The notes below the pieces were generated by a model. That model was not told where the DNA came from, ran no database searches, and worked only from the letters and a program-made list of their open reading frames with translations. A program made the translations under genes and the position numbers. This document shows positions 6,320-51,135 of a stretch of 64,000 nt of DNA, piece by piece. Position 1 is the first letter of the stretch, and the number at the start of each line of letters is the position of its first letter. The stretch is taken from NCBI GenBank assembly GCA_020160875.1, contig JAIUPE010000002.1, forward strand, positions 84 to 64,083, in the 5' to 3' direction. The DNA comes from Pseudomonadota bacterium (GTDB taxonomy: Bacteria > Pseudomonadota > Alphaproteobacteria > Rhodospirillales > Rhodospirillaceae).

Positions 6320-8866
6320 CTATTCATTACGTAACAGGGGCGCGGCTTTGATGCCCATCGCCCGCCAGGTGCCGGTGAAACCGGCAAAAAGCGTGACCGC
6401 AATACAGGCGGCGATCACACTCACGATGACCGTCAGATCAAGCGACCATGGGATCTCCATGAGTTCGCTAACCACGCCAAAGGCGGCCAGCCCACCAACC
6501 ACCGCCGCGATCAAGCCGGTGGCCAGACCCAGCAAGAGATATTCGAACACGAAGGCCTTCAGGACGTCGGCCCGCGTGGCGCCAAGCACCTTCAGCACCA
6601 CCGACTCATAGATGCGCCGGGAATGCCCCGCAGCGATCGCGCCCGCGAGCACCAGTGCGCCGGCCACCAGCGCAACGCCGGCCGTGAGACGCACCGCGAT
6701 ACTCAGGGTTCCGAGCACACTCTTCAGGGTCTCGAGCGCCGAACGCACCTGGACGACAGTGACATTGGGGATCGCGTTGAGCACCGCCGTCTCGATCTTC
6801 TCCTCCACGCCCGCCTCGGTGTTGGCCGTCGCAAGGAACATCGCCGGCGCGCCGCGCAGGGCATTCGGAGAAAAGATGATGCCGAAATTCATGGCGCCCG
6901 ATTGCCAGCGTACGTCGCGGAAGCTCGCGATCTTGCCGGTGACGTCGCGCCCCAGCACCTGCACGGTGATGGAATCGCCCAGCTTCAAATCCGCGGCGGC
7001 CGCGCCGGCGGACTCCAGCGACACCAGGAATTCACCCTCGTAATCGGCGGGCCACCATTCTCCGGCGGACAGCCGCGCGTTCTCCGGCATCGCGGCGGCA
7101 TAGGTGATGCCGCGGTCGCCGCGCAGAAGCCAGCTTTCGCCGTGCGTCTTCATATGCTCTTCGGAAGGGATGCCGTTCACCTGCGTCACGCGCGCGCGGA
7201 TCATCGCGGCCGTCTGGACCTTGTTGACGCCGGGCATGCCGGTGACGATCTTGCGGAACTCTTCTTCCTGATGCGGCTGGATGTCGACGAAGAACATGCT
7301 TGGCGCATCGCTTGGCAAGCCATCGGCGAGCTGTTTGTTGAGATTGGATTCCAGAAGCGCGATGGCCACCAGCACCGATAGGCCGAGCCCGAGCGACAGC
7401 ACGACGGACATCGTCGGCGAACCGGGCCGATAGAGGTTGGCGAAGGCGAGGCGCAAGGACGGGCGTCCGGCGGTAGGGCTGTTGCGCCCCTGCGTCATAC
7501 GCGCCGCGAAGCGCATCACGCCACGCGCGGCGAAGCTGAACAGCACCATGGCGGCGGCGGAGCCGCCGACAAAGGCTGCCGCGTACATCTTGCGTTCGGC
7601 GGTGGCGATGGTGAAGGCCGCGAGCGCGAGCCCCACCAGCACGATGGCCGCCATGTACTTACCGCGCGGCCAGCGGCCTTCGTCCGCCAGCACGTTGCGG
7701 AATAAGGCGACGGGCGGAATGTCGCGCGCGCGCGCGAGCGGCCACAGGGCGAACAGCGCGGCGGTCAGGATGCCGAACACGCCAGCTTGCAGCAGCGCCG
7801 TCGGATAAAGGCCGAACTTCGCCGCGACAGGTAGCGTGTCGCCCAGGGCCTGCGCCGCGCCAAATGGAATGGCCGCGCCGATCGCAAGGCCGATGACGAT
7901 TCCGACGGCGGCGAGGAAGGAGAGCTGGATCAGATAGATGGCGAAGATCGTATCGGCCGGCGCACCCAGGCATTTCAAGGTGGCGATGGTGTTGAGGCGG
8001 CCCAGCAGATGCGCGCGCACGGCGTTCGCGACGCCGATGCCGCCCGTCAAAAGCGCGGTCAGGCCCACCAGCGTCAGGAACAAGGTCACGTTATCAAGAA
8101 AGCGGTCGAGGCCCGCCGCGGCGCGGTCCAAACCTCGGATACGCCAGCCCGCGTTGGGGAATTGCGCTTCCAGGCTTGCGCGCACAGCGTCCGCCGTTTC
8201 GCCGCCGGTGATGCGGATATTGTACTCGTGCTCGATCAGGCTGCCCGGCTGGACAAGTTGCGTGGCCGCGAGCGCCTCGTGGGAGATCAAGACGCGGGGG
8301 CCGATGGTGGTGAAGCTGATCGACCGGTCCGGTTCGTGGGTGATGGTGGCGCGCACTTGGAAGGTGGCTTCGCCGATCTTGATCCGGTCGCCGGCCGCCA
8401 CGTTCAGACGCGGCATCAGGGCCGGTTCGATGGCCGCGCCGAACACGCCGTCCTTTTCCGCCAGCGCGTCTTCGAGCGGCAGGGCCGGAGATAACGTAAG
8501 CTCGCCGTACAGCGGATAAAGATTGTCGACCGCTTTCAGTTCGATCAAGCCGCGGCTGCCGACTTCGCCGGCTTCGTTTTCCACACGCGCCATGGAGCGC
8601 ATCTGCACCAGATGCGTGACGTCGCCGCCCGCGCGCAACGCCGCGAGTTGTTCGTCGGTCGCGACCGTCGTGTCGTTGTCGATTTGAAGATCGCCGCCCA
8701 ACAAGGGGCGCGCGTCCGCTTGGATGCCCGCCTTCACCGACTGATTGAGCGACGCCGCGCCCGCGATCGCCGCGACGCCGATGATGATGCAGGCCAGGAA
8801 GATGCGGAAACCGCGCATACCGCCGCGCAGTTCCCGAAGGGCGAAGCGAAACGCGATCGACGACAT
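6320..8866 (-). CDS. ABC transporter permease, FtsX-like double-domain (YbbP-like)
   Basis: 848 aa with two FtsX-type TM bundles and large periplasmic loops. It follows the ATPase gene by 6 nt. Confidence 0.8.
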   Translation of the reverse strand: MSSIAFRFALRELRGGMRGFRIFLACIIIGVAAIAGAASLNQSVKAGIQADARPLLGGDLQIDNDTTVATDEQLAALRAGGDVTHLVQMRSMARVENEAGEVGSRGLIELKAVDNLYPLYGELTLSPALPLEDALAEKDGVFGAAIEPALMPRLNVAAGDRIKIGEATFQVRATITHEPDRSISFTTIGPRVLISHEALAATQLVQPGSLIEHEYNIRITGGETADAVRASLEAQFPNAGWRIRGLDRAAAGLDRFLDNVTLFLTLVGLTALLTGGIGVANAVRAHLLGRLNTIATLKCLGAPADTIFAIYLIQLSFLAAVGIVIGLAIGAAIPFGAAQALGDTLPVAAKFGLYPTALLQAGVFGILTAALFALWPLARARDIPPVALFRNVLADEGRWPRGKYMAAIVLVGLALAAFTIATAERKMYAAAFVGGSAAAMVLFSFAARGVMRFAARMTQGRNSPTAGRPSLRLAFANLYRPGSPTMSVVLSLGLGLSVLVAIALLESNLNKQLADGLPSDAPSMFFVDIQPHQEEEFRKIVTGMPGVNKVQTAAMIRARVTQVNGIPSEEHMKTHGESWLLRGDRGITYAAAMPENARLSAGEWWPADYEGEFLVSLESAGAAAADLKLGDSITVQVLGRDVTGKIASFRDVRWQSGAMNFGIIFSPNALRGAPAMFLATANTEAGVEEKIETAVLNAIPNVTVVQVRSALETLKSVLGTLSIAVRLTAGVALVAGALVLAGAIAAGHSRRIYESVVLKVLGATRADVLKAFVFEYLLLGLATGLIAAVVGGLAAFGVVSELMEIPWSLDLTVIVSVIAACIAVTLFAGFTGTWRAMGIKAAPLLRNE

Positions 8867-8872
8867 ATGAGC

Positions 8873-9634
8873 TTACTCCGAAAGCGCGGCGCGTGTGGCC
8901 GGCAATCCTTCGCCGGTGATCAGGCCGTCGGCGATGCGCACGATACGGTCGCATTTCTGGGCAAGGCCCATGTCGTGCGTGATCAGCACCAAGGTCGTGC
9001 CGGTCTTGTCGTGCAGATCGAACAGAAGATCGATGATGTGATGACCCGTCGCGCCGTCCAGGTTCCCCGTCGGCTCGTCGGCCAAAAGGATCTTGGGCTT
9101 CACGGCGAAGGCGCGCGCGAGCGCGACGCGTTGTTGCTCGCCGCCCGAAAGCTGGCCCGGGTAGTGGTCGAGGCGGTGACCCAGGCCGACATTGCGCAAG
9201 TGTTCCTCGGCGATGTCGAACGCGTCTTTGCGGCCCGCGAACTCCAGCGGTACCGCCACGTTCTCCAGCGCGTTCATGGTCGGGATCAGATGAAATGATT
9301 GAAAGACGATGCCGATGTTGTCGCGCCGGAACAGCGCGAGCTTATCTTCATCCATGGCCGCATAGTCGGTGCCGGCGATCTTCACCGATCCCGACGAGAT
9401 GCGCTCGAGCCCGGCGATGATCATCAGCATGGTGGTCTTGCCCGAGCCCGAAGGCCCGACGACACCAAGAGCCGTGCCGTGCGTGACGTTGAGATCGATG
9501 CCTCGCAGAATATTGACCGGCCCCGCAGGGCCCGCCAAAGTGAGACGCACGTTGTTCAGTGTGATCGCCGGAACGTCCGAGGACGCGCGCTCCAGACTCG
9601 TTTTCATATTGGCGGTGGGAATGGATTGGGTCAT
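8873..9634 (-). CDS. ABC transporter ATP-binding protein (YbbA/LolD-like)
   Basis: Walker A 'GPSGSGKTT', signature '[14 protein letters not shown]' and Walker B '[11 protein letters not shown]'. Confidence 0.9.
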
Positions 9635-40996: not shown

Positions 40997-41083
40997 TGGG
41001 AATCCCCACAAGGTTAGTCGCCCCAAGGCCTGTGATAGAGCCGCGTGGGGCGGGGGCCAAGTGACAAACCTACGTAAGGGTTT

Positions 41084-41536
41084 TCACGCTTTTTGCGCGT
41101 AAGTCTTGATCTTCTCCACCATCGACACCAACCCATTGCGGCGGCTGGGGCTCAGATGCTGATCGAGGCCAAGCGCGTGAAAAGCGGTTTCCGTATCGGT
41201 TGAACCGATCTCCATCGGCGTCTTTCCCGAGAACAGGATGCCGAGCACCGCGATCAGTCCTTTGACGATATGGGCGTCGCTGTCGGCGGCGAAGGCGAAT
41301 CGGCTTGGATCGCCGTTCGGATGGCCCGGCACCATCCACACCTGGCTCATGCAGCCGCGCACCTTGTTTGCTTCGGTCTTCAACGCGTCCGGAAAGGCCG
41401 GCAGCTTGCGGCCCAGGTCGATCAGGTAGCGGTAACGGTCTTCCCAGTCGTCAAATAAGGCAAAGTTCTCGGTGAGCTCGGTAAAGCTCATGTCCGGGAC
41501 GATCATGGGGGCGGATGTAGTGACGGGGTCGTTCAT
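41084..41536 (-). CDS. sufE: SufE-family cysteine desulfuration protein
   Basis: 'DWEDRYRYLIDLG' and 'NKVRGCMSQVW' (active-site Cys). Confidence 0.85.
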   Translation of the reverse strand: MNDPVTTSAPMIVPDMSFTELTENFALFDDWEDRYRYLIDLGRKLPAFPDALKTEANKVRGCMSQVWMVPGHPNGDPSRFAFAADSDAHIVKGLIAVLGILFSGKTPMEIGSTDTETAFHALGLDQHLSPSRRNGLVSMVEKIKTYAQKA

Positions 41537-41627
41537 GGAAATCGCAAATTCATCAAGGCTACGCTTTTGATCGAACGCCGTTATAGTACAAGTATAACTT
41601 GTCCGGGGCGGTGGTCATTCGCTCCGG

Positions 41628-43304
41628 GTGCAGAGGGGAGCGGTAATGCCTGACGGCCAGAGCGGCGTTGTGGAGAGTTTAGCGGAGGGCGTCAATGTTG
41701 AACGCGCGCCGTTGGTGGCTCCAATCTTCTCCACACCTCAGTACGAACGGCCCTCCTACGTCCTCGAAGATTTTAAGTGGGGCAGCGGCCCGCGCGGCAC
41801 CACGGGCGGCACCATCACTTGGGCGATCGTGACCACCGGCCAGACCTATCCGGCCAATGCCGAATACACCAGCCAGGCCACACCCATCTCGTCGGTCTTC
41901 ATGCCGACCATCCGCGCGGCCTTTTCGCGCTGGGACGCGGTCGGCAACTTCACCTTCGTCGAAACGACTTCGCCGATGACCGCCGACATGGTGGTCATCT
42001 TCGACGAGTTGCAGGCTCAAAGCTCGGACACCGTGGGCCTTGCCAATACGTGGTCTCAAGGCAGTGAGGTCACCAACTCATACATCTCGTTCGATATCGG
42101 GCGTCGTTACCGGCTGATGGACGGTTCTGTCCAAACCGTCGGCACCAGTTCGTCCGACGGTTCGGTCGATTTTTACACGCTCGTTCTTCACGAGGTCGGG
42201 CATGCGCTGGGCCTCGACCACGAGGATAACCAACAGTCGGTGATGAGCGCATCGCAGAGAACCGACATTACCGATCTTACGGCTGATGATATCAGCGCGA
42301 TCCACGCCATATACGGCACGCCGAGCGGGGACGATTTTTCGGCAACCACCGCGACGACGGGCGTCGCCGTCGTGGGCTCCACGGTCACGGGCAGCATCGA
42401 AACCGCGGGCGATACCGATTGGATCCGCGTGACCCTCACAGCGGGGACTCTGTACCGCTTCGACGGACGTGGCAGCGCGTCCAGCGGCGGCACGCTCGCC
42501 GATCCCGCGCTGCAGCTCCTGAATGCGGCGGGGACCGTTCTTATCGCCGACAACGATAGTGGTCCGGGCGCGGACGCGCGAATCATGTTCAAGGCCGTCA
42601 CGTCGGGGACTTATTACCTCGCCATGCGGGCCAACACATCCACGGCCACCGGCACCTACACCATCGCCGCGACGGCAAACCCGGACGACTACGCGGCCTC
42701 AACGGCGACGGCCGGCACTGTCGCCGTGGGCGGTACGGCCACCGGCATCGTCGAAACCGCCGGCGATCGCGACTGGTTCCGAGTCACGCTCACCGCGGGC
42801 ACCGCATACAACATCCAAGTCTCCGGCACGGCCACGGGCAGCGCGCTACGTTGGACGGACTCGAACGTGGTGCTGCGCAATGCCGACGGTACGCAGGTGG
42901 GCGCGAATACGCGCAGCAGCCTGGGCGCCTCCGCGCTCCTCACCTATACACCGACTAGCACCGGCACCTATTACATCGATGCCTTAGCCTACAGTTCGGG
43001 TATTGGCAGCTATTCGGTTTCCGTTGCGCCCGCCAGCGCGGCGCAAGCAAGCGCACTGACGGCCGGCGATCTCGCCGTCGTGACGGCGCCGCCCGCGATC
43101 TCTCTCGATGAACTGCCCACGCAAGTCGCGCGCTCGACGACGGTTTTTGTGGAAGGTCCTTTGAGCGCCATTCTCACGCCACCGCCCGCAGATTTGTTCT
43201 CGCTGCCCGCAGAACAGCAGAATACATTCATGGCTGGCCACACGCCGTTCGAGCAACTCCTTCAGCAGCAGCCGAGCACGGGTTACAATCTCCTGCCGTT
43301 CTAG
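41628..43304 (+). CDS. M10 (matrixin/serralysin-like) zinc metalloprotease with 2 PPC-like repeats and conserved C-terminal tail
   Basis: 'HEVGHALGLDHE' at 42189-42224, with 'SVMS' downstream. Two ~117-aa repeats carry 'GDxDWxRVTLTAG...DSG...GTYY'. The likely true start is ATG at 41646 ('MPDGQSGV'), which is shared with the paralog. Confidence 0.8.
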   Translation: MQRGAVMPDGQSGVVESLAEGVNVERAPLVAPIFSTPQYERPSYVLEDFKWGSGPRGTTGGTITWAIVTTGQTYPANAEYTSQATPISSVFMPTIRAAFSRWDAVGNFTFVETTSPMTADMVVIFDELQAQSSDTVGLANTWSQGSEVTNSYISFDIGRRYRLMDGSVQTVGTSSSDGSVDFYTLVLHEVGHALGLDHEDNQQSVMSASQRTDITDLTADDISAIHAIYGTPSGDDFSATTATTGVAVVGSTVTGSIETAGDTDWIRVTLTAGTLYRFDGRGSASSGGTLADPALQLLNAAGTVLIADNDSGPGADARIMFKAVTSGTYYLAMRANTSTATGTYTIAATANPDDYAASTATAGTVAVGGTATGIVETAGDRDWFRVTLTAGTAYNIQVSGTATGSALRWTDSNVVLRNADGTQVGANTRSSLGASALLTYTPTSTGTYYIDALAYSSGIGSYSVSVAPASAAQASALTAGDLAVVTAPPAISLDELPTQVARSTTVFVEGPLSAILTPPPADLFSLPAEQQNTFMAGHTPFEQLLQQQPSTGYNLLPF

Positions 43305-43397
43305 CGGCGCCCGTCGCCGGCATTCGTAATTTCTTCCCAACGGTTGTTTCCGGGAATAGATTTGCTGCCGTTCTAAAGTAGGGGCTCGCTATCGCGG

Positions 43398-46300
43398 GTG
43401 GCGGAGCGGGGGAGCAGGATGCCTGACGGTCAGAGCGGCGTTCCGGAAACCTTCGATTACGACGTCAATGTCGTAAGTTTTCCGCTTGTCGCGCCCATCG
43501 CGGTCACGCCTCAATATGAGCGCCCGGCCTACGTGCCCGAAAACTACAAATGGGGCAGCGCCGCTGTCGGCACCTCCGGCGGAACAATCACATGGGCGGT
43601 TGTCTCCGCGGGCCAGACTTATCCTTCCAGCGAGTATACGTCGGCGGCGACGGCGATCGGCTCGGTGTTCATGCCGACCATCCGCGCGGCATTCTCGCGC
43701 TGGGACGAAGTCGGCAATTTCACCTTTGTTGAATCCTCGAACCCCATGACGGCCGATATCGTCGTCATGTTCGACGAGCTGTCGGGCGAGGGATCCAGCA
43801 CTATCGGTCTTGCGCATACCTATTACAGCGCCGGCGTGGTGCGCGATTCCTATATCTCCTTCGACATCGGGCGGCGCTATCGCCTCACTGACGGCACGGT
43901 GCAGATCGTCGGATCGCCCACCTCTTCGAGCACATCGGACTTTTATACGCTAGTTCTGCACGAGGTCGGTCACGCCCTCGGCCTCGACCACGAGGACGAT
44001 TTCCCCACCGTGATGGGGTCCTTCCAGAACTCCAGCATCACGGATCTCACCAGCGACGAGATCAACGGCATCCGCTATCTCTACGGAACGCCGGGCGGCG
44101 CCGGCACCGACGACTGGGGCGGGACGACGGCCACGACCGGCGCGATCATTGTCGGCGCATCGGTGATCGGGAATATCGAAACCGCCGGCGATAGCGACTG
44201 GTTTCGTGTCACGCTGACCGCCGGGGTCACGTATCAATTCGACATGCTGGGCGGCAGTTCGCTCACCGACCCCTTCCTGAACCTGCGCAATTCAAGCGGC
44301 GTCGTCGTGGGCAGCGACGATGATTCCGGCGACGGTCTCAATGCCAGACTGGTTTATACGCCGACGAGCAGTGGTGTCTACTTTGTGGACGCGCGCTCGG
44401 CGTCGGCCTCGGGCACCGGCTTCTACGGTGTGCTCGTCACGCAATCGAGCACCAGCAATCCCAACCCCAGCGACGATTACGCCGGAAGCACATCAACGAC
44501 CGGCACGATTGCCGTGGGTGGAACGGTCAACGGCAATATTGAAGTCGGCGATGATCGCGACTGGTTCCGCGTCACGTTGGCCGCTGGCACCACGTATCGC
44601 GTCGATCTCAACGGCGGCACGCTCGCCGACCCGCTCCTCTATATCCGTAACTCCAGCGGCACGAGCGTCGCTAGCGACGACGATTCCGGCACGGGCCTCA
44701 ACGCGTCTCTCAGTTACACACCGACCACGACGGGCACCTATTACATCGACGCTCAGGGTGCGACGTTGTCGGGCACGGGCACTTACACCTTGAGTCTTAC
44801 GCAAACCAGTGCGGCGGACGACTACACGGCTTCAACAAGTACCACCGGCAGTGTCACCGTTGGTGGCACCGCGACTGGCCGCATCGAAACTGGTGGAGAC
44901 CGCGATTGGTTCCGCGTCAGTTTGACGGCCGGAGCCACGTACCGCTTCGATGTGCGTGGAATCGATACGTCCGGCGGTACGCTGTCGGATCCCTACCTTA
45001 CCTTGCGGGATTCGAACGGCACGCTGCTGGGCAGCGACGACGATTCCGGAACAATTCTGGATGCGCAGCTCTCCTACACAGCGACAACGAGCGGCACGTA
45101 CTATGTCGAAGCGCGCGCTTCGGGCTCGACCGGCACTGGCACTTACACAGTCGGCGTGACGCAGACGGGTACCGGTACAGGCGGCCCTGACGATTTCGGC
45201 CAGACAGCGAGCACCGCCGGCATCCTTTCTGTCGGGCAAATCCGTACGGGCACCTTCGAGAACAATCAGGATCAGGATTGGTTCGCCGCGACCTTGACCG
45301 CGGGGACCCCTTACCACATCCAGGTTCGTGGACGCGACACGGGCGGCGGCACGATGGTCAATCCGTCGTTGTCGATCTACACCTCCACGGGCCTTATTCG
45401 CTTTGATTCGGATTCCGGATTCGGCGCCGACGCGTTTCTCAGTTTCACCCCAACCTCTACGGGCATCTACTATATCGCTCCCGAAGCGCTCTTCGCGGGA
45501 ACGGGCACCTATACCGTTCAGCTTGTCGAAGCTATTGGTGGCGATGACGCTTGGAACTCCGCCCTTTCATCCGTGGTGCTGCCGGTCGGTCTGACGTTCG
45601 CCGGAAATATCGGCAACAGCTTCGATACGGACTACATCCACGTCGATATGGTCGCGGGCACGACGTATCAGATCGACGTGCGGGGTGCGGCATCTGGGGT
45701 CGGGACGCTTTCCGATCCCTATTTGTCCATTTTGAAGCCCAACACGTTCTCCGCCGATAAAGTCGACAACGACAGCGGTACGGGCGCCGATGCTCAGCTT
45801 ATCTATACGGCGACGGTAACAGGGCGGCATGACCTGGCCGTGGAGGCCATTGGCGGGGCTTTGGGCTCCTACGTCGTATCTGTCGTGCCGACAACAGCGC
45901 CGCCGGCACAAGATTATCCAGCTACCGTTGCAACGACCGGCGTCGTGAATGTAGGGGGCACGCTCAGCAGCACCATTGACCAAGCCGCCGACGTCGATTG
46001 GATCCGCGTGAACCTCACCGCCGGAACGCTCTACCGGTTCGACGCGCGCGGCAGCGCCTCCGGCGGCGGGACTTTGGCCGACCCGGCGCTGCAGCTTCTC
46101 AATTCCAGCGGCACGGTGCTTGCCAGTGACAGCGATAGCGGGACAGGTGTGGACTCGCGCATCATGTTCCAGGCTACCACGTCCGGAAGCTATTACCTCG
46201 CGGCGCGCTCCAATTCATCGACGGCCACAGGGACCTACACCATCGCCGCGACCGCGAGTCCCGACGACTACGCCGCCAACACGGGCACGACGGGCACGCT

Positions 46301-46907
46301 GACGGTCGGCGGTACGGCCCATGGACTTTTGGAGACGTCGGGAGATCGCGATTGGTTCCGTGTCTCGCTGACGGCGAACACGACCTACACCATCAGCCTT
46401 TCCGGAACAGCGCTCGGAAACGCCCTGCGCTGGACGGAATCGTCGTTCTACGTACGCAATGGCAGCGGCTTCCAGCTCGCCACGGCGTCGAGCAGTGGTC
46501 TCGGCGCGTCCGCGGTTCTGACCTACACCGCTTCGACGACGGGCACCTATATCATCGACACGCAGGCTTACAGCAGCGGCGTTGGCAGCTATACCGTATC
46601 GATCGCGACGGGCCGCGCGCAGCAAGCCGATATGCAGCCCGCGATCGGCGAAGAGACAGACCTGTCGGCGGCCGATCTCGCCGCGATCATGGCGCCGCCT
46701 GCGATCATGCTCGACGAGCCGCCCGTGCAAATGGCGCGGTCCATCACGGTGTTGGCGGAAGACCCCTTGAGCGTGATACTTACGCCGCCGCCGGCGAACC
46801 TGTTTCAGCCGCCCACGGCGCCGCAGAATCCGTTCATGGCGAACACACCGCTCGATCAATTATTCCAGCAGCAGCTTAGCAACTCTTACAACCTGCTGCC
46901 GTTTTAA
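43398..46907 (+). CDS. M10 (matrixin/serralysin-like) zinc metalloprotease with 7 PPC-like repeats and conserved C-terminal tail
   Basis: 'HEVGHALGLDHE' at 43959-43994. Seven ~119-aa repeats. The likely start is ATG at 43419. The N-terminal and catalytic regions are closely similar to the upstream paralog. Confidence 0.8.
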   Translation: MAERGSRMPDGQSGVPETFDYDVNVVSFPLVAPIAVTPQYERPAYVPENYKWGSAAVGTSGGTITWAVVSAGQTYPSSEYTSAATAIGSVFMPTIRAAFSRWDEVGNFTFVESSNPMTADIVVMFDELSGEGSSTIGLAHTYYSAGVVRDSYISFDIGRRYRLTDGTVQIVGSPTSSSTSDFYTLVLHEVGHALGLDHEDDFPTVMGSFQNSSITDLTSDEINGIRYLYGTPGGAGTDDWGGTTATTGAIIVGASVIGNIETAGDSDWFRVTLTAGVTYQFDMLGGSSLTDPFLNLRNSSGVVVGSDDDSGDGLNARLVYTPTSSGVYFVDARSASASGTGFYGVLVTQSSTSNPNPSDDYAGSTSTTGTIAVGGTVNGNIEVGDDRDWFRVTLAAGTTYRVDLNGGTLADPLLYIRNSSGTSVASDDDSGTGLNASLSYTPTTTGTYYIDAQGATLSGTGTYTLSLTQTSAADDYTASTSTTGSVTVGGTATGRIETGGDRDWFRVSLTAGATYRFDVRGIDTSGGTLSDPYLTLRDSNGTLLGSDDDSGTILDAQLSYTATTSGTYYVEARASGSTGTGTYTVGVTQTGTGTGGPDDFGQTASTAGILSVGQIRTGTFENNQDQDWFAATLTAGTPYHIQVRGRDTGGGTMVNPSLSIYTSTGLIRFDSDSGFGADAFLSFTPTSTGIYYIAPEALFAGTGTYTVQLVEAIGGDDAWNSALSSVVLPVGLTFAGNIGNSFDTDYIHVDMVAGTTYQIDVRGAASGVGTLSDPYLSILKPNTFSADKVDNDSGTGADAQLIYTATVTGRHDLAVEAIGGALGSYVVSVVPTTAPPAQDYPATVATTGVVNVGGTLSSTIDQAADVDWIRVNLTAGTLYRFDARGSASGGGTLADPALQLLNSSGTVLASDSDSGTGVDSRIMFQATTSGSYYLAARSNSSTATGTYTIAATASPDDYAANTGTTGTLTVGGTAHGLLETSGDRDWFRVSLTANTTYTISLSGTALGNALRWTESSFYVRNGSGFQLATASSSGLGASAVLTYTASTTGTYIIDTQAYSSGVGSYTVSIATGRAQQADMQPAIGEETDLSAADLAAIMAPPAIMLDEPPVQMARSITVLAEDPLSVILTPPPANLFQPPTAPQNPFMANTPLDQLFQQQLSNSYNLLPF
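44109..46610 (+). repeat. Seven tandem in-frame ~357-nt coding repeats (PPC / pre-peptidase C-terminal-like domains)
   Basis: Each unit reads 'DDY(A/G)xST(S/A)TTGx(I/V)xVGGTxxGxIExxGDRDWFRV(T/S)LTAG(T/A)TY...DDDSG(T/D)G...YT(P/A)T(T/S)(T/S)GTYY...GTGTYT'. Confidence 0.85.
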
Positions 46908-46912
46908 ACCTC

Positions 46913-47338
46913 ATGATCCCAGTCACGCCGACTCTCTCCCTCGACGACAGCGAGATCGAACTCTCCTTCATCCGCTCCAGCGGCCCCGGCGGCCAGAACG
47001 TCAACAAGGTCGCGACGGCCGTGCAGCTGCGCTTCGATGCGCGCCGCTCGCCTTCGCTTCCCAATGACGTCGCGATCAGGTTGATGGCGCTGGCAGGAAA
47101 ACGTGCGACTACGGATGGGGTGATCGTCATCACCGCCAATCGCCACCGCACCCAGGAAATGAACCGCAAAGACGCCATCGACCGGCTTGTGGAAATGATC
47201 GTCAAGGCGACGCATGCCCCTAAGCGCCGCGTTGCGACCAAGGTCAGCAAAGGCCAGAAGAAGCAGCGTCTCGAAGGCAAGAAGAAGCGCAGCGGCGTGA
47301 AGGCGGGCCGGCGCGTCGGTGCGGGCGACTGGGATTAG
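46913..47338 (+). CDS. arfB: Alternative ribosome-rescue factor ArfB (YaeJ peptidyl-tRNA hydrolase)
   Basis: GGQ motif 'SSGPGGQNVNKV' and a basic C-terminal tail 'KGQKKQRLEGKKKRSGVK'. Confidence 0.9.
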   Translation: MIPVTPTLSLDDSEIELSFIRSSGPGGQNVNKVATAVQLRFDARRSPSLPNDVAIRLMALAGKRATTDGVIVITANRHRTQEMNRKDAIDRLVEMIVKATHAPKRRVATKVSKGQKKQRLEGKKKRSGVKAGRRVGAGDWD

Positions 47339-47377
47339 GCCTTCGGATTGGCATAGGCTGCTGCGATGCTCGCCTAG

Positions 47378-47506
47378 CTAGTCGAAGCCATATGTCATGA
47401 ATACATATAAGGCGATGACCATCACGACACAGATAACGGCGCCTATAAAGGTTCCTTTGAGGAGCGGCCCTCGAACCTTCGTTGCGTATTCCTCGTCAGC
47501 TCTCAT
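47378..47506 (-). CDS. 42-codon hydrophobic small ORF (candidate)
   Basis: Not in the ORF track because it is under 60 aa. Sequence: MRADEEYATKVRGPLLKGTFIGAVICVVMVIALYVFMTYGFD. GGGGAG lies 4 nt upstream of the ATG. It is 29 nt downstream of, and co-directional with, the 131-aa ORF. Confidence 0.35.
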   Translation of the reverse strand: MRADEEYATKVRGPLLKGTFIGAVICVVMVIALYVFMTYGFD

Positions 47507-47535: not shown

Positions 47536-47931
47536 CTAAAGCCAAGGCAATCGTCGTTCCCGACAAGCTATCTGCTTGTCCGGTTGGATGGTGAGCGCGA
47601 CAACGTCAATGCTTATGAAAGTTTCGTAACCGCAACGTTGTTCGATCGGCGAACCATTATTCTGTAAGCGGGCGAAAGCCCACCCCTCCGGACGAACGAA
47701 ACCAATAAACCACTTCGAGCGTCCACCATCGAGAGCGCCCTCCCATCTGAGGTCCTGCTCAAACCCGATCTCCACTCCGTCGAGCTTTTCATACCCGTCG
47801 TTCTTTACGATCGCGAAAAGCAGGCCGTCAAAGCAGATGTAGATTGTTGCCAGCAGCAGGGCCGTGACAACGGCATGTCGAAACCCGCGACTCCCAATGA
47901 GTGGCGGTTTACCCGTGTCGTTGACGCTCAT
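47536..47931 (-). CDS. Hypothetical single-pass membrane protein (131 aa)
   Basis: One TM helix 'AVVTALLLATIYICFDGLLFAIV'. The gene is AT-rich and starts 5 nt after the upstream gene's stop. Confidence 0.6.
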   Translation of the reverse strand: MSVNDTGKPPLIGSRGFRHAVVTALLLATIYICFDGLLFAIVKNDGYEKLDGVEIGFEQDLRWEGALDGGRSKWFIGFVRPEGWAFARLQNNGSPIEQRCGYETFISIDVVALTIQPDKQIACRERRLPWL

Positions 47932-47936
47932 ATTGC

Positions 47937-48923
47937 TCAGCCTCTGTCATTTCCCAAACGGAGTTTTACTTTCTTCATGGCGTCTTCGATCTGCGCTTCG
48001 CCGCCGCCCGGCAACGCGCGGCCAATGCGATTATTGTACAAATCCATTTTTTGTTCGCCCGGGGCATTTGGGACTGAAACTTCGTGTGCGTCGGCCATCG
48101 CTTTAGCTCGTTCGGCCCCCATTGTGCGCGCCATTAAATAGTTCCAGGTGGTATGCTTGTACGCGTCGGCTTCATTGTCGCGCGCGATGACACCGGGGTA
48201 TCGGCGCCCGGTAGCATCCCAAGCCGCAAGAGTCGCAGCGCCTGCCATGAGCGCACCCAATGGATCGCGCCACGCCGCACCTAAATGGCCGGGTGAATTC
48301 GGATCAAATCCCAGCGCTGCTGGGCTAGGTCCCGCCACACTTGGCGCATTGACGTCGGGAATAAAAAGGCCTGGCTTGTCTATACTCTCCGTGTGTGTGG
48401 CCTGTGTGGCAGGATCTTTCTTAAACAGTCCGCCGATCCAATCCATCACCCCAAACTCAGGCGCGCCGGTTTCGGGATTAATATGATTCAATGCGTTGCC
48501 CACGATCAGAACTTCTAGCGGGATGCCGTATGGTTCTGCGGCGCGGCGTAATGCGGCGAGTACCTCTTCGCTTTGAAGCGCTACTGGAACTACGATCTCC
48601 TGGCGCGCGACGTGCGCTACTTCCGTGTCGCTCCCGCGGCCTTGTAAAGCGACAACTCGCGTTTTGAATTGCTGCACTAATTCCGGATTGGATCGGTGTT
48701 CAAGTATCTGAAGTGCATCTTGCACTTGGGCTAAGTAGCGGGTGCGATCCCGGTCCCCGCTGGCCGTTGCCGCGTTCTTAAGTGCGAGTAACGCACGTAG
48801 AGCGGCTGGTCCCGCAGCAATGACGGCATCGCGATCAATGCCTAGCCCAGGCGCATGATCCGCAAGTTCGGTCAGCTTGATGCGAGTTTGATGGGACATT
48901 GGTAAGCGTGAGAAGTCAGTCAT
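47937..48923 (-). CDS. Hypothetical protein with C-terminal 'HxxWN...AHE...MDLYNNRIGR' domain
   Basis: About 328 aa from 'MTDFSRLP' (AGGAAG SD), or 336 aa from the upstream ATG at 48947. No signal peptide. AT-rich relative to the flanks. Confidence 0.6.
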   Translation of the reverse strand: MTDFSRLPMSHQTRIKLTELADHAPGLGIDRDAVIAAGPAALRALLALKNAATASGDRDRTRYLAQVQDALQILEHRSNPELVQQFKTRVVALQGRGSDTEVAHVARQEIVVPVALQSEEVLAALRRAAEPYGIPLEVLIVGNALNHINPETGAPEFGVMDWIGGLFKKDPATQATHTESIDKPGLFIPDVNAPSVAGPSPAALGFDPNSPGHLGAAWRDPLGALMAGAATLAAWDATGRRYPGVIARDNEADAYKHTTWNYLMARTMGAERAKAMADAHEVSVPNAPGEQKMDLYNNRIGRALPGGGEAQIEDAMKKVKLRLGNDRG

Positions 48924-49221
48924 GAGTCTTCCTTTCAAGAATGGCAATCTCTTGAGCGATCTGCAGGCGCGCTGCTGCGCGCACGTATCGTGCGTTGTTA
49001 ACCGGGGTCGATAAGGGAAAGTCCGCGGCGGCGGTTGCGCAGCGGGACATTTATCAATTTGCGCCTAGCGCCAAGTGTCGCACAACTGTTGCCACCGCGA
49101 ATTTTGCTGAAGCCTTCACGAGACAACAGAATCTGGAAAGTGTCGCCTGTCGCCAGGTGTCGCCAACATTCATGCTGTAGCGCTTGGCGAAATCGAAAAG
49201 CCTCGCCGTTTCGGCATAGCT

Positions 49222-51030
49222 TTAGGTGCCGCCGCCATCGGCCGTGAACTGCAAAGCCGCCACACGGGCGTACAACGGATTGCTCGTGATGAGCTGCTCA
49301 TGCCGGCCCGTGGCGACGAGACGTCCATCATCGATGACTGCGATGCGGTCAGCATTCACGACGGTCGCCAGACGGTGCGCGATCACCATGGTGGTGCGTC
49401 CCACCATCAAGCGTTCAAGCGCCGTTTGCACCAGACGTTCGTTCTCCGCATCGAGCGCGCTGGTGGCTTCATCGAGCAGCAGCAGCGCCGGGTCGCGCAG
49501 GATGGCGCGGGCGATGGCGATCCGCTGCTTCTGCCCGCCCGACAGGCGCACGCCGCGCTCGCCCAGGAAACTCTTCATGCCGTCGGGCAGCTTCTTGATG
49601 AATTCCATCGCCGCCGCCGCTTCCGCCGCCGCGTGGACTTCCTCGTCCGTTGCATCGGGGCGGCCGTAGCGAATGTTCTCCATGGCGTCGGCGGCGAAGA
49701 TCACCGGATCCTGGGCGACCATGCCGATGCGCGAGCGCACCACCTGCGGATCGGCTTCCTTGAGGTCGATGCCGTCGATACGCACGCTGCCCGCCTGCGG
49801 ATCGTAGAAGCGCAAAAGGAGCTGGAAGACGGTGGTTTTGCCGGCGCCCGACGGGCCGACGAGGGCGACATGTTCGCCTGGGGCCACATTCAGCGTAAGG
49901 CCTTTCAAGGCCGCCGTTTGCGGACGCGACGGATAGTGGAAGGTCACATTCTCGAAATCGACAGCGCCGCGCGCGGGCAGCGGCAGCGCTTTCGGCTGTG
50001 CGGGCGCGGTGATTTCCGGCTCGGTTTCCAAAAGCTCGATCAGGCGTTCGGTTGCACCCGCCGCGCGCTGTAAATCCCCCATCACTTCCGTCATGGCGCC
50101 GGTCGAGGCGGCGACGGTCACCGAGTAGAAAATGAAGGCCGTCAAATCGCCGGGCGTCACCGTGCCGGCGATGACGCCGTGTCCGCCCGCCCACACCACG
50201 ATGGCGATGGCGGCGAAGACCAGAAGGATGACGATGGCGCCCAGCATCGCGCGCGCCTTGATACGGCGCATGGCGGTGATGAAAGCGCCCTCCACATTGC
50301 GTGCGAAGAAGGCGCGATCGCGGTCTTCATGTACAAAGGCCTGTACGGTGCGGATGGCGTTGATGTTCTCCTCCGCATAGGACCCCACATCGGCTACGCG
50401 GTCCTGGCTCTCACGCGAGAGTTTGCGCACTTTGCGGCCGTACCAGATGATCGGTACGATCACCGCCGGCAATACCAGGGCGACAAGCCCTGTAAGCTTG
50501 GCGTTGGTGACGATTAGCATCGTCACCCCACCCACCAGCGCGACGGAATTACGCAGCGCGATGGACAGGGACGAACCCACCACTTGTTGTAGAAGCGATG
50601 TGTCGGTGGTAATGCGCGAAAGGATTTCGCCGGTCTTGGTGGTCTCGAAGAAGCCCGGCGAAAGTCTGAGGATATGGTTGAATACGGCCGTGCGGATATC
50701 GGCCACGACTCGCTCGCCGATCCACGAGATGTAATAAAATCGTGTGAAGGTGCCGACGGCGATGACGACGATCACCCCGATGAGCGTCAAAAGGCCCTGA
50801 TCGAGCATTTCGCGGCTTCCGGCGGAAAGTCCGCGGTCGATCACGAACTTTAGCCCCAGGCCAATGCTTAAGGTCGCGGCCGAGGTGATGGCCAACGCGA
50901 TACAGAAAATGAGCAGTTGGCCCTTGTACGGACGCATGAATTCATAGGTCCGCCGCAGGTGGGCGTAATTCTTGCTCCGGGGCCGGTCGGGCATGTTCCA
51001 GCGGGAGGGGCCGGAAGACCGTTCGCTCAT
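49222..51030 (-). CDS. ABC transporter, fused permease/ATP-binding half-transporter (ABCB/MsbA/Atm1-like exporter)
   Basis: Six-TM domain followed by an NBD: 'GPSGAGKTT', 'LSGGQKQRIAIARA' and 'LLLDEATSALD'. Start at 'MSERSSGP' (cat at 51028-51030). Confidence 0.85.
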   Translation of the reverse strand: MSERSSGPSRWNMPDRPRSKNYAHLRRTYEFMRPYKGQLLIFCIALAITSAATLSIGLGLKFVIDRGLSAGSREMLDQGLLTLIGVIVVIAVGTFTRFYYISWIGERVVADIRTAVFNHILRLSPGFFETTKTGEILSRITTDTSLLQQVVGSSLSIALRNSVALVGGVTMLIVTNAKLTGLVALVLPAVIVPIIWYGRKVRKLSRESQDRVADVGSYAEENINAIRTVQAFVHEDRDRAFFARNVEGAFITAMRRIKARAMLGAIVILLVFAAIAIVVWAGGHGVIAGTVTPGDLTAFIFYSVTVAASTGAMTEVMGDLQRAAGATERLIELLETEPEITAPAQPKALPLPARGAVDFENVTFHYPSRPQTAALKGLTLNVAPGEHVALVGPSGAGKTTVFQLLLRFYDPQAGSVRIDGIDLKEADPQVVRSRIGMVAQDPVIFAADAMENIRYGRPDATDEEVHAAAEAAAAMEFIKKLPDGMKSFLGERGVRLSGGQKQRIAIARAILRDPALLLLDEATSALDAENERLVQTALERLMVGRTTMVIAHRLATVVNADRIAVIDDGRLVATGRHEQLITSNPLYARVAALQFTADGGGT

Positions 51031-51060
51031 AGGAAATCCTTTGGAATGTGGGGCTTCACT

Positions 51061-51135
51061 AGCGCCGCCGATTTGAAGTTCCCGCACTGGGTGGTGTAAG
51101 ACCACGCCGGGAACTTCAAATCGAAAAGCGGCGCT
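51061..51135. repeat. Bulged long hairpin element (family copy 2)
   Basis: Outer arms AGCGCCGC/GCGGCGCT, inner arms CGATTTGAAGTTCCCG/CGGGAACTTCAAATCG (perfect 16 bp), a 4-nt bulge AAAA and a 23-nt loop. It shares the 13-nt core GATTTGAAGTTCC with copy 1. Confidence 0.8.

What the first reader, a model, noticed from the sequence alone, without database searches (positions are those of the whole stretch)
41628..46907. Tandem M10 zinc-metalloprotease paralogs: PPC-repeat expansion (2 versus 7), no signal peptide, shared ~80-aa C-terminal tail ending YNLLPF
Seen directly:
- Two adjacent same-strand genes share a near-identical N-terminus ('MPDGQSGV...', 'PQYERP.YV.E.(F/Y)KWGS').
- Both have a matrixin-type HEVGHALGLDHE catalytic site.
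- Both end with a conserved tail: '...PPAI(S/M)LDE.P.Q(V/M)ARS.TV..E.PLS.ILTPPPA(D/N)LF..P...QN.FMA...P.(E/D)QL(L/F)QQQ.S..YNLLPF'.
- Between protease and tail, gene 1 has 2 and gene 2 has 7 ~117-119-aa repeats with 'GD.DW(F/I)RV.LTAG..Y...' and 'DSG.G....(I/L).(F/Y).(A/P)(T/V)(T/S)SG(T/S)YY'.
- The last two repeats of gene 2 are most similar to the two repeats of gene 1. Gene 2 therefore looks like gene 1 plus five inserted units.

Established knowledge:
- The repeat pattern fits the bacterial pre-peptidase C-terminal (PPC) domain.
- Serralysin-type M10 proteases are exported by type I secretion via C-terminal signals.

Inference:
- There is no N-terminal signal peptide and there are no RTX GGxGxD nonapeptides.
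- The conserved tail may therefore be a non-canonical C-terminal secretion or sorting module, and the PPC array a variable-length spacer or binding stalk.
- No HlyD-type adaptor or outer-membrane factor gene is in the window.
Basis: partly seen in the sequence, partly recalled or inferred. Interest (0 to 1): 0.65.

Follow-up and report, generated by a model that had tools for sequence, protein, structure and literature searches.

The report
Tandem signal-less M10 proteases with PPC arrays
Two neighbouring genes encode acidic, cysteine-free zinc proteases carrying 2 and 7 PPC binding modules plus a conserved disordered head and tail found only in a small group of uncultured Rhodospirillaceae; they are probably exported in one step without a classical signal peptide, a modest variation on a known theme.

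Summary
Two same-strand genes (true starts ATG 41646 and 43419) encode 552- and 1162-aa proteins with this layout:
- a 45-aa leader (MPDGQSGV…PQYERP.YV);
- a Peptidase_M10 core with HEVGHALGLDHE;
- 2 or 7 PPC units;
- a ~85-aa tail ending YNLLPF.

There is no signal peptide and no RTX. The repeat number is not an assembly artefact.

New findings:
- The family is confined to a few uncultured Rhodospirillaceae MAGs, usually at one site (SufE–[1–3 paralogs]–ArfB), with 2–9 PPC units.
- A profile of the tail found only this family among 1.84 billion proteins, so it is not a sorting tag shared between different cargo proteins.
- AlphaFold predicts the tail and the leader to be disordered, yet their motifs are as conserved as the folded domains.
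- One paralog keeps leader, PPC units and tail but has lost the protease domain.
- All members are Cys-free, with pI ~4.1.
- Cousins carry either RTX repeats with canonical type I endings, or an RsaA_NTD anchor beside a PrtD/HlyD exporter.

Best reading: these are extracellular or surface-bound proteases exported by a type I system encoded elsewhere, with the tail as a non-canonical signal or anchor. Export is inferred, not shown. I rate it a new variant of a known kind, of moderate interest.

The parts
41582..41645 (+). 5' region of gene 1. It contains a TATAGT box (41582-41587), a GC-rich inverted repeat CCGGGGCG/CGCTCCGG (41603-41627) and the Shine-Dalgarno sequence GAGGGGAG (41633-41640).
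   Evidence: The sequence was read. The TATAGT box and SD are conserved upstream of most first-in-array paralogs in relatives. RNAalifold gave only weak support for the hairpin as a consensus structure. Rfam has no hit here.
41646..43304 (+). Gene 1 (552 aa): leader, M10 core, 2 PPC units, tail.
   Evidence: ORF. The public gene call uses this ATG. Pfam M10 and PPC hits. 0 Cys and pI 4.22.
41646..41780 (+). Gene 1 N-terminal leader, aa 1-45: MPDGQSGVVESL, a variable stretch, then PQYERPSYVLEDFKW. It is predicted to be disordered.
   Evidence: pLDDT about 33. Family conservation to g1 is 69% for the first 12 aa and 79% for the PQYERP box, against 66% for the M10 core. No family match at E<=10.
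41781..42323 (+). Gene 1 M10 metzincin catalytic domain, with HEVGHALGLDHE at aa 182-193 and Met-turn M200.
   Evidence: PF00413 scores 64.4 bits against a cutoff of 24. Zinc-site residues are invariant. Foldseek matches karilysin (TMt 0.69-0.72), MMP-13 and serralysin.
42330..43031 (+). Gene 1 PPC units 1 and 2, the two core units shared by the whole family.
   Evidence: PF04151. Modelled as beta-sandwiches. The best fold match is the ColG tandem collagen-binding domain 5iku, E 3.9e-11. The units are orthologous to g2 units 6 and 7.
43032..43301 (+). Gene 1 C-terminal linker and tail, aa 463-552. Motif blocks are DLAVVTAPPAISLD, ILTPPPADLF and PFEQLLQQQ..YNLLPF.
   Evidence: pLDDT below 50 with one short helix. 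The blocks are 55-67% conserved and the linkers 36-51%. The tail profile finds only this family.
43305..43418 (+). Spacer between gene 1 and gene 2. It holds a possible relic of a tail 3' end (…GIDLLPF*, 43356-43376) and the gene 2 SD GGGGAG.
   Evidence: The relic is only an 11-15 nt match, so this is weak.
43419..46907 (+). Gene 2 (1162 aa): leader, M10 core, 7 PPC units, tail.
   Evidence: ORF. Pfam. 0 Cys and pI 4.05. Ortholog P0122/L011 has the same units minus unit 3.
43419..43553 (+). Gene 2 N-terminal leader: MPDGQSGVPETF…PQYERPAYVPENYKW.
43554..44108 (+). Gene 2 M10 catalytic domain (HEVGHALGLDHE).
   Evidence: PF00413 scores 61.6 bits.
44109..45908 (+). Gene 2 PPC units 1-5, the variable inserted units: 44109-44471, 44472-44816, 44817-45188, 45189-45542, 45543-45908.
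   Evidence: Anchors and unit lengths. The seven g2 units are 31-62% identical to one another. Units 1, 2, 4 and 5 are 88-92% identical to their counterparts in P0122.
45909..46655 (+). Gene 2 PPC units 6 and 7, the core units: 45909-46262 and 46263-46655.
   Evidence: 72% and 62% identical to g1 units 1 and 2.
46656..46904 (+). Gene 2 C-terminal tail (…DLAAIMAPPAIMLD…ILTPPPANLF…LFQQQLSNSYNLLPF).
46913..47338 (+). arfB, a ribosome-rescue hydrolase. It starts 5 nt after the gene 2 stop. It is probably co-transcribed and marks the downstream edge of the site; it is not functionally part of the proteases.
   Evidence: NF006718 scores 181.6 bits against a cutoff of 100. The last protease gene and arfB overlap by one base or lie at most 5 nt apart in L003, L005 and L012.

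Best explanation
The two genes are tandem paralogs encoding extracellular or cell-surface zinc metalloproteases.

Architecture of each protein:
- a divergent M10 metzincin core that cuts protein;
- a chain of PPC beta-sandwich modules, the same fold as the calcium-dependent collagen-binding domains of clostridial collagenase. These act as substrate- or surface-binding modules and set the reach of the enzyme. Two core units are always present, and 0-7 extra units are inserted before them.

Export: the proteins have no Sec, Tat or lipoprotein signal. I infer that they leave the cytoplasm unfolded in one step through a type I secretion system (ABC transporter, adaptor and TolC-like channel) encoded elsewhere in the genome. 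The disordered, proline-rich ~85-aa C-terminal tail, with its three conserved linear motifs and conserved extreme C-terminus, would serve as the uncleaved recognition signal, and possibly also as a surface-retention peptide. The PPC units would fold outside the cell.

The conserved 45-aa N-terminal leader is a second functional peptide whose role is unknown.

What is shown and what is inferred:
- Shown: the domain identities, the absence of a signal peptide, the conservation and predicted disorder of both termini, the narrow distribution, and the variation in copy number and repeat number.
- Inferred: export itself, the route, and the role of the tail.
For: 1. Domain assignments.
- M10 and PPC both score above the Pfam cutoffs.
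- The zinc site is invariant.
- Fold matches are to karilysin, MMP-13 and serralysin for the core, and to the ColG tandem CBD for the PPC pair.

2. No signal peptide is possible.

3. Composition typical of one-step-exported proteins.
- 0 Cys in the window pair and nine relatives (one, P0009, has a single Cys), where about 17 would be expected in the window pair.
- pI 4.05-4.38.
- 1-5 Lys per protein.
- No TM-grade segment.

4. Family context.
- More distant homologs combine M10 and PPC with RTX repeats and Peptidase_M10_C. They end in the classical protease type I motif, such as DFVFV, DFIL or DLVFG.
- The RTX-less, signal-less cousin P0027 (M10 + 4 PPC + RsaA_NTD) lies 7 kb from a PrtD-type ABC (TIGR01842, 742 bits, cutoff 510) and a HlyD adaptor (TIGR01843, 366 bits, cutoff 209), inside an S-layer island.
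- Caulobacter Sap, of the same general design, is reported to be T1SS-secreted despite having no recognisable signal (review PMC3034196).

5. The tail behaves like a functional disordered signal.
- pLDDT is below 50.
- Its three blocks are 55-67% conserved, against 36-51% for the linkers and 66-71% for the folded domains.
- The extreme C-terminus is conserved as (Y/F)xLLPF or LLP(I/L)G.
- LDAVTSIF residues make up 50-52% of the last 50 aa, within the published range for type I substrates.

6. Missing exporter linkage is not informative. An RTX-bearing cousin also has no T1SS gene within 10 kb.

7. A protease-less paralog keeps leader, PPC units and tail. The termini are therefore maintained independently of catalysis.
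Against: - There is no experimental or genomic link to any exporter. No T1SS gene lies in the 64-kb window or within 10 kb of any tail-bearing ortholog.
- There are no RTX repeats.
- The last 50 aa are 20-22% KHPMWC, mostly Pro, against 7% in RTX cousins. This violates the 'KHPMWC-poor' rule.
- The terminal dipeptide PF does not fit the [FLI][VAI] preference of RTX substrates (PMC8861453), and no conserved acidic residue precedes the hydrophobic end.
- The N-terminal leader is at least as conserved as the tail and could itself be the export determinant.
- I could not establish whether these MAGs encode a T1SS.
Confidence: 0.5

Rival explanations
1. The tail is a surface-retention or anchoring peptide, binding LPS, an S-layer or an outer-membrane protein, rather than the secretion signal. 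The export determinant lies elsewhere, in the leader or internally.
For: - In the sister clade the same C-terminal position holds RsaA_NTD, a known LPS/S-layer anchoring domain.
- Sap is reported to be secreted with no recognisable C-terminal type I signal (PMC3034196), and from my own recollection of Ford et al. 2007, which the library does not hold, it is membrane-bound at the cell surface.
- The proline-rich motif blocks (APPAI, TPPPxDLF) look like binding epitopes.
- The tail composition departs from type I signals.
Against: - The tail has no folded domain and no similarity to any known anchor.
- The conserved free C-terminus is more typical of a signal recognised from the end.
- No S-layer genes lie near the locus.
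Confidence: 0.2
2. The N-terminal leader directs export by some other signal-peptide-independent route, such as an uncharacterised system. The tail is then a C-terminal pro-segment removed on maturation, as PPC-containing extensions are in many 'pre-peptidases'.
For: - The leader's first 12 aa and its PQYERP box are the best-conserved non-catalytic parts, at 69% and 79%.
- The first ~10 codons are conserved even at synonymous sites.
- The leader is retained in the protease-less paralog.
- PPC domains are named for being cleaved off after secretion (Pfam PF04151 description).
Against: - No T3SS, T4SS, T6SS or injection-system genes lie in the window or in syntenic loci.
- The leader matches no known signal.
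- The nucleotide-level conservation may reflect translation initiation rather than a peptide signal.
- A pro-segment has no obvious purpose in a paralog without a protease domain.
Confidence: 0.15
3. The proteins are not exported. They are cytoplasmic, or are released only by lysis, and the termini are regulatory or degradation tags.
For: There is no signal peptide and no linked exporter. The gene is tightly coupled to the cytoplasmic housekeeping gene arfB.
Against: - Metzincin cores joined to PPC arrays are typical of secreted proteases, and the PPC pair matches the calcium-dependent ColG collagen-binding domain.
- The total lack of Cys, the pI of ~4 and the near-absence of Lys fit extracellular proteins.
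- Relatives are T1SS-type or lie next to T1SS genes.
Confidence: 0.05
4. The tail is a modular sorting tag of the PEP-CTERM, GlyGly-CTERM or T9SS-CTD kind, shared by many cargo proteins and recognised by a dedicated sorting enzyme or system.
For: It sits at the C-terminus and is conserved between paralogs.
Against: - The tail profile found only this one protease family in 1.84 billion representatives. The sole other hit was a spurious repeat protein.
- The tail has no TM helix or basic cluster, 0 Lys and 1 Arg.
- No sortase-type gene is nearby.
- The Por_Secre_tail hit is below cutoff (17.9 against 27) and lies inside a PPC unit, not in the tail.
Confidence: 0.03

Closest known systems
Caulobacter crescentus Sap/SapA and the M10 + PPC + RsaA_NTD proteins of Phenylobacterium and relatives (P0027, P0058, P0061, P0078)
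   Same: - Alphaproteobacterial M10 metalloprotease with no signal peptide.
- No canonical type I C-terminal motif.
- A non-catalytic C-terminal module that decides localisation.
- P0027-type proteins also carry tandem PPC units and are 33-38% identical to g1.
- They lie beside a PrtD/HlyD exporter.
- Sap is reported to be exported by a T1SS (PMC3034196).
   Different: - The window proteins have no RsaA_NTD and do not hit NF051884 ProteaseSapA.
- Their C-terminus is an ~85-aa disordered proline-rich tail instead of a ~185-aa folded anchor.
- They carry a conserved 45-aa leader.
- No S-layer or T1SS genes are nearby.
Serralysin-type (M10B) RTX proteases: AprA, PrtSM and PrtA/B/C/G, and the M10+PPC+RTX homologs P0085-P0120
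   Same: - Metzincin core with an HExxHxxGxxH zinc site; the model matches serralysin structures 1srp and 5d7w.
- No signal peptide.
- Acidic and Cys-poor.
- Several homologs also contain PPC units.
   Different: - No RTX beta-roll or Peptidase_M10_C.
- No D-hydrophobic C-terminal motif.
- The residue after the third zinc His is Glu, not Pro, and the Met-turn (SVMSAS) lacks the serralysin Tyr. This is read directly from the sequence; the serralysin consensus is from my own knowledge.
- By sequence the core scores closer to matrixins and karilysin.
Clostridial collagenase ColG/ColH C-terminal collagen-binding domains, and PPC domains of secreted Vibrio and Pseudoalteromonas proteases
   Same: Tandem PPC beta-sandwiches follow a metalloprotease core. 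The top Foldseek hit is the calcium-bound ColG s3a-s3b tandem CBD (5iku, E 3.9e-11).
   Different: - Those enzymes are M9, M4 or S8 proteases exported by Sec with N-terminal signal peptides.
- They carry 1-2 PPC units and no conserved tail after the last PPC.
- Here there are up to 9 units, and export is signal-peptide-independent.
Karilysin (Tannerella forsythia) and other bacterial matrixin-like M10A proteases
   Same: This is the best structural match to the catalytic core (TMt 0.69-0.72) and a weak sequence match (E ~4e-5). Both have a short N-terminal peptide preceding the core.
   Different: - Karilysin has a Sec signal and a T9SS C-terminal domain.
- The leader here is predicted to be disordered and is retained in a protease-less paralog, which argues against a pure latency peptide.

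Membership tests
Peptidase_M10 (Pfam PF00413, metzincin clan) | Profile match above the gathering score | tested here: met
   64.4 and 61.6 bits against a cutoff of 24.
Peptidase_M10 (Pfam PF00413, metzincin clan) | HExxHxxGxxH zinc site plus a downstream Met-turn | tested here: met
   Both proteins carry HEVGHALGLDHE. H182, E183, H186, H192 and M200 are invariant in 13 sequences.
Peptidase_M10 (Pfam PF00413, metzincin clan) | Metzincin catalytic fold | tested here: met
   The AF2 core (pLDDT 70-93) matches karilysin at TMt 0.69-0.72, MMP-13 at 0.65, and serralysin.
Serralysin subfamily (M10B, RTX proteases) | C-terminal RTX beta-roll (Peptidase_M10_C PF08548, HemolysinCabind PF00353, GGxGxD nonapeptides) | tested here: not met
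   Neither Pfam family hits at E<=0.1. There are no GGxGxD runs.
Serralysin subfamily (M10B, RTX proteases) | Extreme C-terminal acidic residue followed by hydrophobic residues (DxxX-type signal) | tested here: not met
   The proteins end in YNLLPF, whereas RTX cousins end in DFVFV, DFIL or DLVFG.
Serralysin subfamily (M10B, RTX proteases) | HExxHxxGxxHP and an SxMSY Met-turn with a zinc-ligand Tyr | tested here: not met
   Direct reading gives …LDHE(D/N) and (S/T)VM(S/N/G)(A/S), with no Tyr. The family consensus is from my own knowledge.
PPC, bacterial pre-peptidase C-terminal domain (PF04151) | Profile match above the gathering score; beta-sandwich fold | tested here: met
   46.5 and 155.8 bits against a cutoff of 25.9. 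The units are modelled as beta-sandwiches, and the top fold hit is the ColG tandem CBD.
Type I secretion substrate | No N-terminal Sec, Tat or lipoprotein signal | tested here: met
   The ORFs cannot be extended upstream. The leader is acidic, with no hydrophobic core, no RR motif and no Cys.
Type I secretion substrate | Acidic and Cys-poor | tested here: met
   pI 4.05-4.25 and 0 Cys in the window pair and eight tail-clade relatives.
Type I secretion substrate | RTX calcium-binding repeats upstream of the signal (a feature of most substrates, not all) | tested here: not met
Type I secretion substrate | C-terminal 50 aa enriched in LDAVTSIF and poor in KHPMWC; terminal [FLI][VAI] | tested here: inconclusive
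   LDAVTSIF is 50-52%, within the published range. KHPMWC is 20-22%, too high and driven by Pro. The terminal dipeptide is PF.
Type I secretion substrate | Cognate ABC, adaptor and OMF present (often but not always linked) | tested here: not met
   None is present in the window or in syntenic loci, and the nearby ABC is MsbA-related. A control shows that an RTX cousin is also unlinked. Presence elsewhere in the genome could not be tested.
Type I secretion substrate | Export depends on the ABC transporter and on the C-terminal ~60 aa | not testable with these tools
   This needs genetics or secretome work.
SapA / RsaA_NTD-anchored proteases | RsaA_NTD (PF19198) at the C-terminus; NF051884 ProteaseSapA match | tested here: not met
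   g1 and g2 hit neither model. P0027 scores 253 bits on PF19198.
C-terminal sorting tags (PEP-CTERM, GlyGly-CTERM, LPXTG, T9SS CTD) | The tag is shared by many unrelated cargo proteins; a TM helix plus basic cluster, or a folded CTD | tested here: not met
   The tail profile finds only this family. The tail has no TM segment, 0 Lys and 1 Arg. It is predicted to be disordered. No family hit at E<=10.

The most novel reading that the evidence does not exclude
The conserved set of leader, PPC array and proline-rich tail defines a previously undescribed class of RTX-independent, one-step-exported proteins. In this class the PPC beta-sandwiches (the fold of calcium-dependent collagen-binding domains) would take over the extracellular folding role of RTX repeats, and a tripartite disordered C-terminal signal, together with an N-terminal peptide, directs export and/or surface retention. 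The protease-less paralog would then be a binding-only member of the same export class.
Probability: 0.2. Interest if true: 0.55.

Novelty: new variant of a known kind. Interest (0 to 1): 0.35.

Why it matters
If the tail, or the leader, proves to be the export determinant, it would add a well-delimited, motif-rich example to the poorly understood set of non-RTX type I signals. It would also show that PPC arrays can pass through such a system. That would help in predicting secretomes of uncultured Alphaproteobacteria and in designing secretion tags.

The locus is also a clear natural example of two kinds of variation at one chromosomal site: domain number (2-9 PPC units) and gene copy number (1-3 genes, including one that has lost the protease domain). 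This suggests rapid tuning of extracellular proteolysis or substrate binding.

As it stands, the finding is a narrowly distributed variant of a familiar protease design, in organisms that have not been cultured.

Tried and rejected
- Word-index homolog search with the tail alone found nothing, not even the query itself. I replaced it with the exhaustive profile search.
I repeated it with 4 closer sequences.
- The downstream ABC gene as the exporter: rejected. It is MsbA-related TIGR02204, above that model's cutoff and far below the T1SS cutoffs, and it is part of the conserved backbone.
- A double-glycine (C39/PCAT) leader: considered because some orthologs read VLENLDGG. Rejected because the GG is not conserved (g1 AEG, g2 DYD, P0003 GDD).
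- The N-leader as a karilysin-like aspartate-switch propeptide: no structural support (pLDDT ~33), and the leader is retained without a protease domain. Not excluded.
- An outer-membrane beta-signal or DegS-type YxF terminus: the spacing YNLLPF does not fit. This rests on direct reading and my own knowledge of the motif.
- A colicin-like TolB box (DGSGW against PDGQSGV), an encapsulin or microcompartment targeting peptide, or T6SS/eCIS cargo: no immunity, shell or injection genes lie in any locus.
- Rfam search of 41000-47500 found no hit.
- RNAalifold on the 5'-UTR inverted repeat gave only -0.64 kcal/mol, so I make no claim of a conserved RNA element.
- Ford et al. 2007 (PMC1899406) is not held in the library. 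I relied on the review PMC3034196.
- I left the last large homolog search unused. Finding a T1SS somewhere among Rhodospirillaceae MAGs would not discriminate, because such systems are near-ubiquitous in this class.

Full report
**What is in the sequence**

The window carries two adjacent + strand ORFs, 41628..43304 and 43398..46907.
- Both have a strong Shine-Dalgarno sequence (GAGGGGAG, GGGGAG) 5-8 nt before an internal ATG, at 41646 and 43419.
- The public gene call for the first gene uses that ATG.
- Twelve distinct paralogs (the window pair plus ten in related loci) begin at the same MPD….
- The products are therefore 552 aa (g1) and 1162 aa (g2).

Pfam gives Peptidase_M10 (1.5e-17, 1.1e-16) and PPC (7e-12, 5e-46), all above the gathering cutoffs. 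NCBIfam has no family-level match.

The motif D.DW[FI] marks 2 and 7 PPC units of 115-131 aa. There are no RTX nonapeptide runs.

Both proteins carry HEVGHALGLDHE. The three zinc histidines, the catalytic Glu and a Met-turn Met are invariant in a 13-sequence family alignment.

g1 unit 1 is 72% identical to g2 unit 6 and g1 unit 2 is 62% identical to g2 unit 7, against 33-56% for all other g1/g2 pairs.

**Not an artefact**
- The longest exact direct repeat in 41628-46907 is 23 nt.
- DNA repeats are at most 82% identical, and 63-77% over stretches of about 100 nt or more.
- Two independent SRA assemblies are 100% identical to the window over 5338 nt (into unit 6 of g2) and 2300 nt.
- An ortholog of g2 (P0122/L011) has the same units at 79-92% identity, apart from unit 6 (69%), and lacks unit 3.

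**No signal peptide and no exporter in the window**

The ORFs cannot be extended upstream. The first 45 residues are acidic with no hydrophobic core, and neither protein has a TM-grade segment.

I scanned 26 window ORFs directly (those of 245 aa or more, plus three shorter ones near the locus) and annotated the rest of 31.7-58.9 kb by synteny. None is a HlyD-type adaptor or outer-membrane factor.

The ABC exporter at 49222-51105 is conserved in synteny.
- It is the MsbA-related TIGR02204 type (865 bits, cutoff 780).
- It scores far below the T1SS models (HlyB 364/725, PrtD 214/510).

**Distribution and locus dynamics**

The closest homologs, at 49-66% identity, come from uncultured 'Rhodospirillaceae bacterium' MAGs.
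- They share the leader MPDG(Q/R)xGVLE…PQ(Y/F)ERP.YV and the M10 core.
- They carry a variable number of PPC units: 2, 3, 4, 6, 7 or 9.
- They carry the same tail.

Except for the P0009 loci, every tail-bearing locus with enough flanking DNA to judge has the genes at one chromosomal site, between sufE and arfB.
- L003 and L004 have one copy.
- The window, L005 and an ENA contig have two. In the ENA contig the long gene comes first.
- L016 has three.

The two C-terminal PPC units are orthologous across the family, and the extra units are inserted between the M10 core and these two. 'g2 = g1 + five units' is therefore right as architecture. But both paralog types are old, each has its own orthologs, and the inserted units are mutually divergent.

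One paralog in L016 (P0018, 722 aa) keeps the leader, four PPC units and a tail but has lost the whole M10 domain.

**The tail and the leader**

I built a profile from nine tails and searched it against 1.84 billion cluster representatives.
- It returned seven proteins.
- Six belong to this family.
- One is a spurious repetitive protein.

A local search of the 125 retrieved homologs found a second tail subtype, …PEDxHRL…QPSNPFxLLP(L/I)G, again only in this family.

Neither the tail nor the leader matches anything in Pfam, NCBIfam or PDB at E<=10.

AlphaFold2 with the family alignment gave this picture:
- The M10 core and both PPC sandwiches are modelled with moderate to good confidence.
- Residues 1-42 and 465-552 have pLDDT below 50, apart from the last seven residues (472-478) of a short helix at 473-480.

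Conservation to g1, averaged over nine family members:

| Region | Identity to g1 |
|---|---|
| First 12 aa of the leader | 69% |
| PQYERP box | 79% |
| M10 core | 66% |
| PPC units | 67-71% |
| Three tail blocks | 55-67% |
| Linkers | 36-51% |

Both termini are thus disordered regions carrying constrained linear motifs, not folded modules.

**Evidence on the export route**

All members have pI 4.05-4.38 and only 1-5 lysines. Eleven of the twelve examined have no cysteine (P0009 has one). About 17 cysteines would be expected in the window pair from the window's other proteins. This is the classical profile of proteins exported in one step.

The model's PPC pair is most similar to the calcium-bound ColG tandem collagen-binding domain. 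The core is most similar to karilysin, MMP-13 and serralysin. By sequence, only weak matrixin and karilysin hits appear.

More distant homologs fall into two groups:
- M10+PPC+RTX proteins. These end in the classical protease type I motif, such as DFVFV, DFIL or DLVFG.
- M10+PPC+RsaA_NTD proteins. These are signal-less and RTX-less like ours.

One RsaA_NTD member, P0027, lies 7 kb from a PrtD-type ABC (742 bits, cutoff 510) and a HlyD-type adaptor (366 bits, cutoff 209), in an island of RsaA_NTD proteins.

The review PMC3034196 reports that Caulobacter Sap, which has the same general design, appears to be T1SS-secreted despite having no identifiable signal.

As a control, an RTX-bearing cousin (P0102) has no T1SS gene within 10 kb. 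Missing linkage is therefore uninformative.

Points against a canonical type I signal:
- The last 50 aa are 50-52% LDAVTSIF, which is within the published range. But they are 20-22% KHPMWC, mostly proline, against 7% in RTX cousins.
- The terminal dipeptide PF does not fit the [FLI][VAI] preference reported for RTX substrates.

**Interpretation**

The best-supported account has four parts:
- These are extracellular or surface-associated M10 proteases.
- Their PPC arrays bind substrate or surface, and the length of the array tunes this.
- They are exported through a type I system encoded elsewhere.
- The tail acts as a lineage-specific, non-canonical signal and/or retention peptide.

The protein identities and architecture are secure. 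Export, the route and the tail's role are inferred; I put about 0.5 on the full statement.

The main rivals are two. In the first, the tail is an anchor, occupying the position of RsaA_NTD. In the second, the leader is the real export determinant and the tail is a cleaved pro-segment. A cargo-independent sorting tag of the PEP-CTERM or T9SS kind is essentially excluded by the profile search.

**Comparison and novelty**

The proteins are members of Pfam Peptidase_M10 and contain PPC domains.

They are not serralysins in the strict sense. They lack the RTX and Peptidase_M10_C region and the D-hydrophobic end. They have Glu rather than Pro after the third zinc histidine, and no Tyr in the Met-turn.

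They are not SapA either, having no RsaA_NTD and no NF051884 hit.

They work most like Sap-type or serralysin-type one-step-exported proteases, combined with collagenase-like PPC binding arrays.

The new elements are the conserved disordered leader and tail, the 2-9-unit PPC variation, and the tandem-paralog hot spot with a protease-less member.

I rate this a new variant of a known kind, with interest 0.35. A specialist in secretion would find it worth a note, but it is confined to a handful of uncultured genomes and export has not been demonstrated.

Noticed in passing
L016:776-2944 (P0018), with neighbours L016:3097-6210 and 6268-9432: Three tandem paralogs follow sufE. The first keeps the MPDGRNGVLENL…PQVERP leader, four PPC units and a tail (…QPFNIF), but has lost the entire M10 catalytic domain. 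It still has 0 Cys and 0 Lys. It may be a binding-only protein using the same export or anchoring termini.
   Followed up: partly
window 41582-41675 and 43380-43450; alignment A4 of 11 paralog 5' regions: Most first-in-array genes share a TATAGT box about 60 nt upstream of the ATG and a GC-rich inverted repeat with differing but complementary stems. In all paralogs the first ~10 codons (ATG CCT GAC GGY CRG ARY GGC GTT CTG GAG) are conserved even at synonymous sites, and they use the rare CCT and GTT codons in a genome with GC3 of 0.77. Rfam has no hit, and RNAalifold support for the hairpin is weak (-0.64 kcal/mol).
   Followed up: partly
window 46905-46915, also L003:12382-12388, L005:12418 and L012:2511-2513: arfB (ribosome-rescue peptidyl-tRNA hydrolase; NF006718, 181.6 bits) starts within 5 nt of the stop of the last protease gene, overlapping its last base in L005, in every locus with the sufE-arfB arrangement. 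It is probably co-transcribed with the proteases.
   Followed up: no
window 47536-48947, minus strand: Two ORFs of 131 aa and 336 aa failed the codon-composition (GC3/GC2) filter used for gene calling. They sit between arfB and the ABC gene and are absent from the syntenic loci L003-L005. The 336-aa product has DUF6973 (PF22322, 1.1e-20). This looks like a small insertion.
   Followed up: partly
window 43356-43376: In one frame the g1-g2 spacer reads …GIDLLPF followed by a stop, echoing the YNLLPF end of the genes. It may be a scar of the tandem duplication, but the match is only 11-15 nt.
   Followed up: partly
L014:6401-11332 and L015:3771-8702 (P0009): The more distant family members, with 6 PPC units and a diverged tail ending …DTGGVPV, are not at the sufE-arfB site. 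They lie directly downstream of a TonB-dependent receptor and a FecCD/Peripla_BP_2 ABC importer, which hints at a nutrient-acquisition role.
   Followed up: no
window g1 aa 182-205 (42189-42260) and the g2 equivalent: The zinc site reads HEVGHALGLDHE(D/N), with Glu after the third His as in astacins. The Met-turn (SVMSAS or TVMGSF) lacks the Tyr of serralysins and astacins. The core therefore fits neither the M10A nor the M10B consensus. The consensus comparison is from my own knowledge.
   Followed up: no
one search list, for example P0020, P0021, P0023, P0028, P0060, P0063, P0068: Many homologs consisting only of PPC units start directly at a PPC unit (MADDYA… or MPDDF…) with no signal peptide. 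They end just after the last unit in an acidic-then-hydrophobic terminus (…EDVLL, …VEDSL, …VELLLT, …IMEVI). PPC arrays may be common passengers of signal-peptide-independent export in Alphaproteobacteria.
   Followed up: no
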